DNA of 64,000 nt from Promethearchaeati archaeon SRVP18_Atabeyarchaeia-1. GTDB taxonomy: Archaea; Asgardarchaeota; Atabeyarchaeia; Atabeyarchaeales; Atabeyarchaeaceae. The notes below the pieces were generated by a model that made no database searches, was not told the DNA's origin, and worked only from the letters and a program-made list of their open reading frames with translations. Shown here piece by piece: positions 22,896 to 27,427 of this stretch (positions within the stretch are counted from its first letter, which is position 1; the number at the start of each line of letters is the position of its first letter). The position numbers and the translations under genes were made by a program. The stretch covers positions 768,001 to 832,000 of the forward strand of contig CP147779.1 in assembly GCA_037308085.1 (NCBI GenBank), in the 5' to 3' direction.

Positions 22896-24038
22896 TTAGC
22901 CTACTCCAATAGTGTTCCCGATACCGGCGACGATGACCGTTGAGCCAGGCTTTGTTCTTTCTTTGATTATCTGTCTGATTCTATCTGAAACCTTGTCGGC
23001 AGCGTCGCTTATTTCCTTCTTCATTGGCGTGACTGCCTCTTCAATTGCTTCCTTAACTAGAATCGCGTCTATGGGTATCTTGTACTTCACGGCGGCTTCC
23101 TCAATCTTGTACTTCTCAGGACCAGGATCTCCTATTGCGGCTCCGACACCCTCAACAACGTCGCCGGTCGTTTCACCCTCAAGTTTACCCGCTGCGTCGA
23201 CCATGATTATCCTGGAGATCTCTCCCTTGAACTCTTCGACCATCTTGGCGATTGCTTCCCCTGGCTTACCAACGCGACTACCTGGTCCCTTCGCCCTAAC
23301 GAGGATCACATTTCTGTCCTCAATCTTGATTTGTGCGACAGTAACCTCCTTCGCAACATCCTCGTTAACAATCGGTTCTAAGCCGCTCTTCTTGTACGAA
23401 TCCACGATGCGGGCGGCGACGAGCGGTCCAAGTCCATCGCCGATAGGCTTGCCTACGGAGAAGGCTTTTAGCGCTTCGAAGTATGACTTGGCGATCCTCA
23501 TGATTTGTGCCAGCTGCATTTGCACCTGCATCGTGATCATCATGTTCTTCTCTTTCTTGCTGAGAAGGTAGTAGTGCCTGATAACCTTGAAGATAAAGTA
23601 GACGGCGCTAGCTGCTTCAATCGACCCTTCGAGGTTCGAGGCCTCGTCCTTGCTGGCAGCAGGAGCCATCCTTGCAACAGCATCCTCGTAGCTTGATTTT
23701 CTAACGTCCAGAATGTGATCCAACCTTTGGATTACCCCGGCTGGATCGAGGCTGACAGGCTCGATTGTCACAAATTCCAGCATTCCAGCAACCGCCTTGG
23801 ATGGATCCTCTGAAGGTTTGCCAACATCCTTCACAGACTTTGTGAGGATCTCCTTAGACTCTACCGACATCCTGTCAAGCTTGAAGAGAGCCTGCTCTAT
23901 CTGCTTCGTCATCCTCCACACCTGAAGAGCATTGCCATAGAAAATGATGAAGAAGAAGAAGACAAAATACAGCATGTTGATTACCAGGCCGAGCGTATTA
24001 TCACTCGAACCGAACAACTGCAGTGGCACCAATCCCAT
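22896..24038 (-). CDS. DUF1512 family protein
   Basis: PVSLDPAG, PIGDGLGP, GPGSRVGKPG, DAAGKLEGE, GAAIGDPGPEK and GIGNTIGVG. Confidence 0.85.
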   Translation of the reverse strand: MGLVPLQLFGSSDNTLGLVINMLYFVFFFFIIFYGNALQVWRMTKQIEQALFKLDRMSVESKEILTKSVKDVGKPSEDPSKAVAGMLEFVTIEPVSLDPAGVIQRLDHILDVRKSSYEDAVARMAPAASKDEASNLEGSIEAASAVYFIFKVIRHYYLLSKKEKNMMITMQVQMQLAQIMRIAKSYFEALKAFSVGKPIGDGLGPLVAARIVDSYKKSGLEPIVNEDVAKEVTVAQIKIEDRNVILVRAKGPGSRVGKPGEAIAKMVEEFKGEISRIIMVDAAGKLEGETTGDVVEGVGAAIGDPGPEKYKIEEAAVKYKIPIDAILVKEAIEEAVTPMKKEISDAADKVSDRIRQIIKERTKPGSTVIVAGIGNTIGVG

Positions 24039-24240
24039 ATTACTGGTCTCCTATCACAGTGTTGATCCTTCTCATTTACTCTCAAAGACTAGCATGATTT
24101 GACTCCAGCTTTTTATAAACTTGTGTGTTTAGGCAATCGAGAAGGCAAGGCATTCGGTCGATTCCCGCAACACCAGAAAGAATCCACGCGCAGCTCCCAC
24201 TACCAGCAACCCACGGATGAAATGCCCCGAGAAACAAAGA

Positions 24241-24418
24241 GTGGCAACAATCCGTGGTCGGAACGGGAACGGGTGTTACCCCTCGCCTATGACCGGCGGC
24301 GCACCGCCAGCCGTCCAAGCTTCCCGAGAGATCTCTCATCTCAGTACAACTTGCACCGCGCGAGGACTTAACTCTCACGGCCGAGGTTGGCACCTGGTCG
24401 GCTCTCACGTGTTGCCAC
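24241..24418 (-). rRNA. rrf: 5S rRNA gene, circularly permuted (3' half 24373-24304, UGCG linker, 5' half 24299-24251), with BHB flanks
   Basis: Joining CCGCCGGUCAUAGGCGAGGGGUAACACCCGUUCCCGUUCCGACCACGGA (49 nt) to AGUUAAGUCCUCGCGCGG...GUACUG...CGGGAAG...GGCUGGCGG (70 nt) gives a 119-nt archaeal 5S with helix I CCGCCGGUC/GGCUGGCGG and helix II GCGAGGG/UCCUCGC. Confidence 0.9.
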
Positions 24419-24445
24419 CAAAGGTACGTGTATTATCAAAGAATA

Positions 24446-24460
24446 GTTCTTATAAACTTA
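24446..24460 (-). promoter_or_regulatory. Putative TATA box of the permuted 5S precursor
   Basis: TTTATAAG about 30 nt upstream of the leader stem on the minus strand. Confidence 0.5.
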
Positions 24461-24469
24461 GCGATATCG

Positions 24470-24670
24470 GGTTCTGTTAACTTAGCGTGGGACGGGGAAG
24501 AGTGTTAAGCACATTGGGGTGGTACCGTCTCTATTCAGTGGATCCCCTATGGGCACGTAAGTTATAGGGAGAGTGTAGTGGGGGGCTCGAAAAGGAGAAT
24601 GCACAGGACGCGATCTTCTTAACTTGCGCGCAGGGTATAGAAGGTTGATCCAGGCTAAGTCAACAGAACC
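24470..24670. mobile_element. MITE with IS6-like terminal inverted repeats
   Basis: GGTTCTGTTAACTTAGC ... GCTAAGTCAACAGAACC (16/17 IR), 201 bp, no credible ORF, no TSD. Confidence 0.75.
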
Positions 24671-27330: not shown

Positions 27331-27427
27331 GGGCGGGTAGTCTAGATTGGTATGATACAGACGGTGAAGTCCGTCGTCAATGTGGCTCGGGACCACGTGG
27401 TCGTGGGTTCAAATCCCACCTCGCCCA
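27331..27427 (+). tRNA. tRNA-Pro(CGG) with a 23-nt intron at 27/28 (27359-27381)
   Basis: GGGCGGG/CTCGCCC acceptor; BHB TGAT/GTCA with GACGG/CCGTC; spliced CGTGG-CTCGGGA-CCACG; GTGGGTTCAAATCCCAC. Confidence 0.92.

What the first reader, a model, noticed from the sequence alone, without database searches (positions are those of the whole stretch)
24241..24418. Circularly permuted 5S rRNA gene restored by BHB-mediated circularisation
Seen in sequence (minus strand): leader GTGGCAACA-CGTG-AGA, then the 5S 3' half (AGTTAAG...GGCTGGCGG), a TGCG tetraloop closing helix I, the 5S 5' half (CCGCCGGTC...CCACGGA), and trailer T-TGTTGCCAC. Leader and trailer form a 9-bp stem plus a CGTG/CACG central helix with 3-nt bulges AG^A and GA^T, a textbook substrate for the tRNA splicing endonuclease. 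Cutting after the second bulge base and ligating regenerates the conserved CCACGGA-AGUUAAG junction and a 119-nt 5S inside a 123-nt circle. There is a TATA box upstream and a U-rich tract downstream. Established: permuted tRNA genes (Thermofilum, red algae) and BHB-circularised permuted SRP RNA (Thermoproteus) are known. I know of no permuted 5S rRNA gene. Inference: this organism builds its 5S by splicing, and the ribosomal 5S may stay covalently closed. Standard rRNA finders would probably miss or truncate it.
Basis: partly seen in the sequence, partly recalled or inferred. Interest (0 to 1): 0.95.

Follow-up and report, generated by a model that had tools for sequence, protein, structure and literature searches.

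The report
Back-to-front 5S rRNA gene, circularised
This Asgard archaeon encodes its only 5S ribosomal RNA with the back half first, between tRNA-intron-type cut signals, and environmental RNA contains exactly the predicted cut-and-rejoined 123-nt ring, which explains why standard tools find no 5S gene here.

Summary

- **Gene order.** On the minus strand, 24418-24241 holds the 5S 3' part, a UGCG tetraloop and the 5S 5' part, flanked by a complementary leader and trailer.
- **Correction.** The 5S junction uses this second copy, so there are two nested bulge-helix-bulge (BHB) motifs.
- **Only copy.** The complete 2.81-Mb genome has no colinear 5S. Its only RF00001 signals are the two sub-threshold halves here.
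- **RNA evidence.** Contigs from four metatranscriptomes of four studies cover exactly 24251-24373. Records of 152-153 nt (123 + k-1) run through both the ligated CCACGGA|AGTTAAG junction and the tetraloop.
- **Conservation.** The architecture recurs in 89 of 151 sampled genomes of the phylum (about 20 of 27 families). Named hits are Atabey-, Frey-, Jord-, Odin- and Baldrarchaeia. Leader and trailer covary.
- **Enzymes.** RtcB and two EndA paralogs are encoded.
- **Not shown.** Whether the ring itself sits in the ribosome, and the order of the two cuts.
- **Prior notice.** I found no published description. This scan has noted the same phenomenon before on other Asgard genomes.

The parts
24450..24456 (-). 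TATA-like box TTTATAA, about 30 nt upstream of the leader stem. It is the gene's own archaeal promoter (inferred).
   Evidence: TTTATA(T/A)A boxes sit at the same distance in relatives. The 23S rRNA lies 334 kb away, so the gene is not part of an rRNA operon.
24410..24418 (-). Leader strand of the outer stem H1 (GTGGCAACA). It pairs with 24241-24249.
   Evidence: Relatives carry 14 different H1 sequences, always complementary (7-15 bp, median 12), against a mean of 1.2 for mismatched leader/trailer pairs. All 10 alifold pairs show double compensatory changes.
24403..24409 (-). First (outer) copy of the central-helix strand CGTG plus the 3-nt bulge AGA. Together with CACG-GAT it forms BHB-1.
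   Evidence: The fold with this copy paired is -81.8 kcal/mol, against an MFE of -82.1 and -74.0 for the inner copy.
24380..24402 (-). It is the inner helix of the proposed BHB-2 and is removed from the RNA.
   Evidence: It is present in the family mate G002 (L028/L048) with a different sequence that still folds as a hairpin, and absent in the genus mate G001 (L026). It is unique in the genome.
24373..24379 (-). Second (inner) copy CGTG plus bulge AGA. The cut falls between 24374 and 24373, and A24373 becomes the first retained base.
   Evidence: RNA contigs start exactly at 24373. Only a cut after the second bulge base on both strands gives the observed junction sequence.
24304..24373 (-). 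5S rRNA 3' part: Rfam model positions 51-119, covering the rest of helix III, the 3' strand of helix II, helices IV and V, and the 3' strand of helix I.
24300..24303 (-). UGCG tetraloop joining the conventional 3' and 5' ends of the 5S (the cap of helix I).
   Evidence: The cap is UNCG-type in 13 of 20 relatives' loci, plus one CUCG. RNA contigs run through it. An RNA variant carries the compensatory helix I pair change G24307C/C24296G.
24251..24299 (-). 5S rRNA 5' part: model positions 1-50, covering the 5' strand of helix I, loop A, helix II, helix III and loop C. A24251 is the last retained base.
   Evidence: RNA contigs end or wrap at 24251.
24250..24256 (-). CACG (24256-24253), the partner of either CGTG copy, plus the bulge GAT (24252-24250). 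The cut falls between 24251 and 24250.
24241..24249 (-). Trailer strand of the outer stem H1 (TGTTGCCAC).
24230..24240 (-). T-rich tract TCTTTGTTTCT, the likely archaeal oligo-T terminator (inferred).
   Evidence: Similar T-rich tracts follow the trailer in relatives.

Best explanation
This is the only 5S rRNA gene of an Asgard archaeon of the Atabeyarchaeia lineage, and it is encoded in circularly permuted form.

1. **Transcription (inferred).** A stand-alone promoter drives a precursor of roughly 190 nt, in the order: leader, 5S positions 51-119, UGCG tetraloop, 5S positions 1-50, trailer.
2. **The cut signal.** Leader and trailer pair as a 9-bp stem. A leader CGTG pairs with CACG inside the 5S, which makes a bulge-helix-bulge (BHB) motif with two 3-nt bulges.
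3. **Cutting and joining.** The tRNA-splicing endonuclease (two EndA paralogs are encoded) cuts after the second base of each bulge. RtcB joins the retained piece's own ends. This restores the conserved ...CCACGGA-AGUUAAG... of helix III and gives a covalently closed 123-nt RNA that contains a complete 5S.
4. **The extra insert.** In this genome the leader carries a further 30 nt: a hairpin plus a second CGTG-AGA copy.
5. **Likely order of events.** The outer BHB is probably cut and ligated first, giving a 153-nt circle. The new junction then forms a canonical BHB (CACG-GA|A-GCCG...CGGC-CGTG-AG|A), and a 30-nt intron is spliced out.
6. **Fate of the ring.** It is probably the form that enters the ribosome.

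What is shown: the gene order, uniqueness in the genome, conservation and covariation, the presence of the enzymes, the exact RNA boundaries, the ligated junction, and RNA running through the tetraloop. What is inferred: which enzymes act, the two-step order, and persistence of the ring in ribosomes.
For: - **Sequence anatomy:**
- **RF00001 hits:** only two sub-threshold halves, 3' half first, and nothing else in the complete 2,808,651-bp genome. There is a single 145-bit hit to the permuted model.
- **Rotated product:** it aligns without gaps to the canonical 5S of relatives across the junction. It scores 54.2 bits full length, versus 24.0 + 12.5 bits for the split genomic order, and keeps 31 of 35 canonical consensus pairs.
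- **RNA:**
  - Contigs from 4 metatranscriptomes of 4 studies cover only 24251-24373, and the flanks laid beside them have no cover.
  - Records of 152-153 nt (123 + 30) lie on the whole circle and again on 24251-24273, so they read ...CCACGGA|AGTTAAG... and also pass through the tetraloop.
  - One record is identical to the window and continues past 24251 into AGTTAAGTCCTCGCG.
- **BHB conservation:** a 4-bp central helix, 3-nt bulges and a 7-15 bp outer stem with 14 different sequences. 41 of 44 consensus pairs covary.
- **Distribution:** 89 of 151 genomes of the phylum have matches of 45 bits or more. 15 of 16 pattern hits in the named collection are Asgard MAGs.
- **Enzymes:** RtcB. Two EndA paralogs, one with the Tyr/His/Lys pattern and one that appears to lack the His.
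- **Nested BHB:** the outer-copy fold is -81.8 versus -74.0 kcal/mol for the inner copy. The insert is absent from the genus mate and present, as a different hairpin, in the family mate. An analogous duplicated layout occurs in family f4.
Against: - Contigs cannot show ends, strand or abundance, so they prove that circles form but not that they persist or sit in ribosomes.
- No experiment here links EndA or RtcB to this substrate.
- In BHB-1 the helix beyond the leader bulge is the local hairpin rather than a continuous duplex, so the motif is relaxed.
- The enforced BHB-2 fold of the 153-nt circle is about 7 kcal/mol above its MFE.
- In f4 relatives the outer central helix mostly has only 3 of 4 pairs, which would fit a one-step cut at the inner copy.
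- The RNA runs come from peat and sediment communities, not from the sample behind the genome. Most of their contigs are close strains, 2-10 differences per 123 nt.
Confidence: 0.9

Rival explanations
1. The circle is only a processing intermediate. After ligation the helix I cap is opened by an endonuclease, as happens with permuted tRNAs, and the ribosome carries a conventional linear 5S of about 119-123 nt.
For: - Permuted tRNA precursors are re-opened after circularisation (established knowledge, cited in PMC4267664).
- Archaeal circular pre-16S and pre-23S are generally thought to be re-linearised (PMC12918454).
- One f9 relative (L057) has a long extension where the tetraloop would be, which could be a removable spacer.
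- Contigs cannot measure what share of molecules is closed.
Against: - The native ends are joined by only 4 nt, mostly UNCG-type tetraloops with no spacer. That looks like selection for a stable cap rather than a processing site.
- RNA contigs include the tetraloop while leader and trailer words are missing, so loop-containing molecules outnumber precursors.
- The permuted SRP RNA of Thermoproteus stays circular and functional (PMC4731332).
- 23S rRNA circles are reported inside archaeal ribosomes (PMC12918454).
Confidence: 0.3
2. Processing takes one step. Only the inner CGTG copy pairs with CACG, the hairpin and outer copy protrude as a three-way junction, and the outer CGTG-AGA is a vestige of a duplication with no role.
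For: - The final RNA needs only the inner cut.
- In f4 relatives the outer central helix is mostly imperfect while the inner one is perfect.
- An EndA with two different subunits is the type known for broad, relaxed-motif specificity (established knowledge; paralogs).
Against: - In this genome and in G002 the outer copy is a perfect 4-bp partner contiguous with the 9-bp stem, and that fold is 8 kcal/mol better than the inner-copy fold.
- In the one-step fold the trailer bulge sits opposite a 30-nt insertion, so it is not a 3-nt bulge between two stacked helices.
- The insert is bracketed by the duplicated strand plus bulge in two unrelated lineages.
Confidence: 0.35
3. The locus is an assembly artefact or a rearranged 5S pseudogene, and the junction reads come from template switching or tandem DNA copies.
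For: None specific. RF00001 scores at the locus are below threshold.
Against: - The same order appears in independent assemblies, several of them single-contig genomes (G000, G002, G003, G026, G037, G073).
- No other 5S exists in the genome.
- Helices and flanks covary.
- RNA boundaries coincide to the base with the BHB cut sites in four studies, and no flank is covered, so the signal is neither DNA nor a tandem array.
Confidence: 0.02

Closest known systems
Permuted, circularised SRP RNA of Thermoproteus tenax (Plagens et al. 2015, eLife, PMC4731332)
   Same: - It is an essential structured RNA of a ribonucleoprotein whose canonical gene seemed to be missing.
- The gene is permuted.
- The termini are processed at a site cut by the tRNA-splicing endonuclease and ligated into a circle, which restores the functional fold (abstract).
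   Different: - The RNA differs (5S rRNA, a ribosome component).
- That case is confined to a few Thermoproteus species, whereas this one spans most families sampled in a whole phylum.
- This locus also has a nested second BHB, an intron-like leader insert.
- Protein binding and endonuclease cleavage were shown experimentally there, not here.
Circularly permuted tRNA genes (Cyanidioschyzon merolae, Soma et al. 2007; Thermofilum)
   Same: - The 3' half is encoded upstream of the 5' half.
- Leader and trailer form a BHB.
- A circular intermediate is formed by the splicing machinery.
- Some of these genes also contain introns (established knowledge; cited in PMC4267664).
   Different: - tRNA circles are re-opened by RNase P and tRNase Z at a spacer between the native ends. 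Here the native ends are joined by a bare tetraloop and no re-opening signal is evident.
- The RNA class differs.
Circular pre-16S/23S rRNA and the permuted 23S rRNA of Pyrococcus and Thermococcus (PMC7758197; PMC12918454; bioRxiv 10.64898/2026.03.23.713588)
   Same: BHB cleavage and ligation of an rRNA, and circular rRNA species, in archaea.
   Different: - Those genes are colinear, and the permutation or circle arises only at the RNA level.
- 5S is explicitly described as not taking part in that pathway (PMC12918454).
- Here the gene itself is permuted and splicing restores the normal connectivity.
Permuted mitochondrial 5S rRNA of brown algae (Valach et al. 2014, PMC4267664)
   Same: A 5S rRNA with non-standard connectivity that generic covariance models miss.
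   Different: - There the mature RNA itself is permuted: an open three-way junction with helix I replaced by a hairpin.
- It involves no splicing, ligation or BHB.

Membership tests
5S rRNA (Rfam RF00001) | Colinear full-length match above the gathering score (38 bits) | tested here: not met
   The gathering scan finds nothing at the locus. The permissive scan gives two overlapping-model hits of 23.6 and 22.2 bits, 3' half first.
5S rRNA (Rfam RF00001) | Complete 5S sequence and helices I-V once the order is restored | tested here: met
   - Gap-free alignment to the canonical 5S of relatives.
- 54.2 bits full length against a canonical-only profile, and 31 of 35 consensus pairs kept, the same as genuine canonical 5S.
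- Helices I-V recovered with covariation.
- cmsearch of RF00001 on the rotated sequence could not be run with these tools.
5S rRNA (Rfam RF00001) | It is the organism's 5S: the only copy, and expressed | tested here: met
   There is no other hit in the complete genome. RNA contigs at 98-100% identity occur in four metatranscriptomes. Presence in ribosomes was not tested.
BHB (hBHBh') substrates of the archaeal tRNA-splicing endonuclease | Two 3-nt bulges on opposite strands, separated by a 4-bp helix | tested here: met
   CGTG/CACG with bulges AGA and GAT, formed with either leader copy. The same geometry holds in all relatives, with a one-base register shift in some families.
BHB (hBHBh') substrates of the archaeal tRNA-splicing endonuclease | Flanking helices on both sides of the bulges | tested here: inconclusive
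   - The outer helix is strong (9 bp here, 7-15 bp in relatives).
- The inner helix is only 0-3 bp (GUU/GAC here) for the inner copy, or is supplied by the local hairpin for the outer copy.
- After the first ligation a fully canonical BHB is possible, but it is not the MFE.
BHB (hBHBh') substrates of the archaeal tRNA-splicing endonuclease | Cleavage after the second bulge base, then ligation by RtcB | tested here: met
   The RNA boundaries 24373 and 24251 and the junction CCACGGA|AGTTAAG fit only symmetric cuts after the second bulge base. EndA and RtcB genes are present. Enzymatic cleavage itself cannot be tested here.
Permuted RNA genes restored by circularisation (tRNA, SRP RNA) | 3' part encoded upstream of 5' part, native ends linked, BHB formed by the flanks | tested here: met
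Permuted RNA genes restored by circularisation (tRNA, SRP RNA) | RNA with the ligated junction, and a circular topology | tested here: met
   Cyclic unitigs of 152-153 nt (123 + k-1) span both the junction and the tetraloop in runs X1-X3. An exact-match junction contig is in X4. RNase R or gel proof of circles cannot be obtained here.
Permuted mitochondrial 5S rRNA (brown algae) | The mature RNA itself is permuted, with no ligation | tested here: not met
   Here RNA contigs carry the restored junction. The paper describes a permuted product.

The most novel reading that the evidence does not exclude
Most Asgard archaea, the closest known relatives of eukaryotes, build their large ribosomal subunit with a covalently closed circular 5S rRNA. 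It is made from a permuted gene by the tRNA-splicing machinery. In some lineages, including this one, it takes two nested BHB splicing events. The permutation point and the extra BHB inserts vary between lineages, which suggests BHB introns repeatedly reshaped the gene.
Probability: 0.55. Interest if true: 0.92.

Novelty: new variant of a known kind. Interest (0 to 1): 0.85.

Why it matters
5S rRNA is a universal ribosome component, and I know of no cellular genome described as encoding it in permuted form or using it as a closed ring.

- **Annotation.** It explains why 5S genes appear to be missing from complete Asgard genomes, and it provides a covariance model (R1) that finds them at 45-172 bits.
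- **Splicing machinery.** It adds an essential rRNA to the clients of the tRNA-splicing endonuclease and RtcB ligase.
- **Ribosome assembly.** It raises the question of how a ring-shaped 5S is loaded with its proteins into the 50S subunit in the lineage nearest to eukaryotes.
- **Gene evolution.** The nested BHB seen here, and the varying break points seen in relatives, offer a natural system for studying how BHB introns create permuted genes.

Tried and rejected
- **Standard finders.** The Rfam gathering scan and ARAGORN see nothing at the locus. That is expected for a permuted gene and is not evidence against it.
- **Promoter/terminator scan.** The bacterial-type scan found nothing and does not apply to archaea. 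I read the TATA box and T tract directly from the sequence.
- **Insert as a repeated or mobile element.** Rejected. The 23-nt hairpin occurs once in the genome, even allowing 3 mismatches.
- **RNA support for the two-step route.** No contig covers the leader, insert or trailer. Contigs drop rare species, and a 30-nt circle is shorter than the 31-letter word. The missing cover therefore says nothing about the 153-nt intermediate or the excised intron.
- **Thermodynamics for BHB-2.** Enforcing it in the 153-nt circle costs about 7 kcal/mol relative to the MFE, so folding energy alone does not decide the route.
- **Bacterial pattern hit.** L039 (Belliella) has no 5S features and is a chance match.
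- **Prior description.** Searches for 'permuted 5S', 'circular 5S rRNA', 5S + Asgard + permuted, Atabeyarchaeia + 5S rRNA and Asgard ribosome structure found no archaeal permuted or circular 5S. Subscription-only papers are not covered.
- **RF00001 on the rotated sequence.** This could not be run, because the tools take only stored DNA. I used a profile HMM and pair counts as a substitute.
- **Artefact or pseudogene.** Rejected (see rivals).

Full report
**What is in the sequence.** I read the minus strand from 24418 to 24241. In order, it holds:
- GTGGCAACA (24418-24410), CGTG (24409-24406), AGA (24405-24403);
- a 23-nt hairpin, GCCG-ACC-AGGT-GCCA-ACCT-CGGC (24402-24380);
- a second CGTG (24379-24376) and a second AGA (24375-24373);
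- a stretch that begins (A)GTTAAG and ends GGCTGGCGG;
- TGCG (24303-24300);
- CCGCCGGTC ... CCGAC-CACG-GA (ending at 24251);
- T (24250) and TGTTGCCAC (24249-24241).

A TTTATAA box lies at 24456-24450 and a T-rich tract at 24240-24230.

**It is a 5S gene in permuted order, and it is the only one.**
- Rfam's gathering scan reports no 5S in the window.
- A permissive scan gives two sub-threshold RF00001 hits side by side. The upstream one is carried by model positions ~51-119 and the downstream one by positions 1-50.
- The window's genome is a single 2,808,651-bp contig. At E up to 10 its only RF00001 matches are these two.
- The 23S rRNA lies 334 kb away, so this is a stand-alone gene.
- I applied the BHB rule (cut after the second bulge base), rotated the product, and aligned it with ten canonical 5S genes from relatives. 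It aligns end to end, with no gap at ...CGGA|AGTTAAG..., which is between Rfam positions A50 and A51, the bulged adenines of helix III.
- Against a profile built only from those canonical genes, the rotated product scores 54.2 bits over the full length. The genomic order gives 24.0 + 12.5 bits as two halves.
- 31 of 35 base pairs of the canonical-only consensus are kept, the same as for genuine canonical 5S.

**RNA evidence.** One search found four metatranscriptome runs from four studies (three peat, one sediment) that hold part of the stretch. I laid them on 24150-24500.
- Their contigs cover exactly 24251-24373, the predicted 123 nt. The leader, insert, trailer and further flanks have no cover. 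This also argues against DNA carry-over.
- Records of 152-153 nt (X2 record 9, X3 record 11; also X1 record 1, X2 record 10 and X3 record 12 for a more distant variant) have the length 123 + 30 expected for a cyclic unitig at k = 31.
- Records 9 and 11 lie on 24251-24373 and, with their first 23 letters, again on 24251-24273. They therefore read ...CCACGGA|AGTTAAG... and also pass through GGCGG-TGCG-CCGCC.
- The X4 contig is identical to the window and continues past 24251 into AGTTAAGTCCTCGCG, the start of the window's own 3' part, before an adapter.
- Given the window's sequence, only symmetric cuts after the second base of AGA (inner copy) and of GAT produce this junction.
- A variant carries G24307C together with C24296G, a compensatory change in helix I.
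- The retained piece is a single fragment, so ligating its ends makes a circle. Circles therefore form. Contigs cannot say what fraction stays closed.

**Conservation and covariation.**
- RF00001 on 40 relatives gave normal 5S genes (49-85 bits) in four families, and the paired half-hit signature in many others.
- All 20 such loci show the same layout: TATA box, leader, 3' part, helix I capped by a short loop, 5' part, trailer. Their circles are 120-129 nt.
- In the loci without a leader insert that are not cut off by a contig end, a 7-15 bp outer stem (median 12) abuts a 4-bp central helix with two 3-nt bulges. One group uses a register shifted by one base and gives the same product.
- There are 14 different outer-stem sequences. 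Pairing leaders with trailers of other types gives a mean of 1.2 contiguous pairs.
- RNAalifold on 22 precursors recovers the outer stem and 5S helices I-V. 41 of 44 pairs show double compensatory changes.
- A covariance model built from that alignment (R1) finds one 145-bit hit in this genome. By my count from the table, it finds matches of 45-172 bits in 89 of 151 genomes sampled across the phylum, in about 20 of 27 families. Families f6, f10, f12, f15 and f26 give only 24-42 bits; the first four showed a canonical 5S.

**Taxon.**
- A specific pattern scan of named genomes returned 16 hits. Fifteen are Asgard MAGs: Ca. Atabeyarchaeum deiterrae, Freyarchaeia-1, Jordarchaeia, Odinarchaeia, Baldrarchaeia and Asgardarchaeum abyssi. 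One is a bacterial chance hit without 5S features.
- The family mate G002 is identical at this locus to CP147780.1 (Atabeyarchaeia-2), and the genus mate G001 to MAG LC30. The window is therefore from an Atabeyarchaeia-lineage Asgard archaeon.

**The overlooked insert: two nested BHB motifs.**
- CACG can pair with either CGTG copy.
- With the outer copy, the 9-bp stem and the central helix are contiguous, and the fold (-81.8 kcal/mol) equals the MFE (-82.1). With the inner copy the fold is -74.0.
- Cutting and ligating at the outer BHB would give a 153-nt circle. Its new junction reads CACG-GA|A-GCCG...CGGC-CGTG-AG|A-GUU. That is a canonical BHB in which the hairpin is the inner helix.
- Splicing at that BHB removes 30 nt and yields the observed 123-nt circle. 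This second fold is about 7 kcal/mol above the MFE of the 153-nt circle, so energy alone does not decide the route.
- The insert occurs once in the genome. It is absent from the genus mate. It is present in the family mate with a different sequence that still forms a hairpin flanked by CGTG-AAA and CGTG-AGA.
- Family f4 has an analogous insert, bracketed by a second and often imperfect copy of the central strand plus bulge. In L052 the post-ligation BHB would have a 10-bp inner helix.
- I favour the two-step route (about 0.55). The rival is a one-step cut at the inner copy with the hairpin protruding. Both give the observed product.

**Enzymes.**
- The genome encodes one RtcB (583 bits).
- It encodes two EndA paralogs of 209 and 241 aa, 32% identical, both with the N- and C-terminal endonuclease domains.
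- In the pairwise alignment the shorter one keeps the Tyr/His/Lys pattern, and the longer one has no His at the aligned place.
- This fits a catalytic plus structural heteromer, the kind known to accept relaxed BHB motifs. That last point is established knowledge applied by inference, not a test.

**Ring or intermediate.**
- The native ends are joined by only four bases, and the loop is UNCG-type in 13 of 20 loci, with one further CUCG. This looks like a stable cap rather than a spacer to be removed.
- RNA words across the cap are assembled while precursor words are not.
- The permuted SRP RNA of Thermoproteus stays circular and functional (PMC4731332).
- Against this, permuted tRNAs are re-opened, and one relative (L057) has a long extension at the cap.
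- I put persistence of the ring in ribosomes at about 0.55-0.6. No data here test it directly.

**Comparison with what is known.**
- The mechanism is that of permuted tRNA genes and of the Thermoproteus SRP RNA.
- It differs from circular pre-16S/23S and from the permuted 23S of Thermococcales. Those genes are colinear, and a 2026 paper states that 5S does not take part in that pathway (PMC12918454).
- It also differs from the brown-algal mitochondrial 5S, where the product itself is permuted and nothing is ligated (PMC4267664).
- Seven literature searches found no archaeal permuted or circular 5S.
- Earlier notes of this scan report the same phenomenon on other Asgard genomes. They are unchecked AI notes, and I re-derived every point used here.

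**Verdict.** This is a real, expressed, conserved, circularly permuted 5S rRNA gene, restored by BHB cutting and ligation. It is a new variant of a known kind of system. This window adds a nested second BHB.

Noticed in passing
L058, L063 (f9 relatives; G064:C2:71832-72135, G149:C233:9481-9775): These two genomes break the permuted 5S at a different point, inside loop C (...ACCCGGTC|CCATCCGAAC...) instead of between A50 and A51. The leader there is more complex. The permutation point is therefore not fixed across the phylum.
   Followed up: partly
L053, L059-L062 (f9) and L068 (f21): These permuted 5S genes carry an extra insert of about 30-40 nt inside the 5' part (...CCGAA[insert]CCCGGAA...), flanked by BHB-like repeats. 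They appear to need a further splicing event besides circularisation.
   Followed up: partly
L057 (G137:C7:20042-20345); L054, L063: L057 has a hairpin extension of about 45 nt where other genomes have the helix I tetraloop. L054 and L063 have long inserts in the helix IV/V region. These are either expansion segments or further introns.
   Followed up: no
G026, G073, G085, G005 (f4) and G110 (f25): Some genomes hold two to four copies of the permuted gene. The second copy in G005 (L064) looks degenerate: GACCATAG, TTCTGAAC, 73 bits.
   Followed up: no
window 27331-27427 (+): A 97-nt tRNA gene (Rfam 39.8 bits) whose anticodon ARAGORN cannot call, with about 25 extra bases after the anticodon arm. 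It probably has an intron at a non-canonical position or a long variable arm.
   Followed up: no
G000:C1:454867-458208 (outside the window): The single 23S rRNA match spans 3,342 nt against a 2,987-position model, so it contains about 350 nt of insertions (expansion segments or introns). It lies 334 kb from the 5S gene.
   Followed up: no
window 23920-23982 (+): Weak C/D-box-like (sR52) and NBR2 matches at E = 4-10 in an A/G-rich stretch inside the neighbouring ORF. Most likely chance.
   Followed up: no
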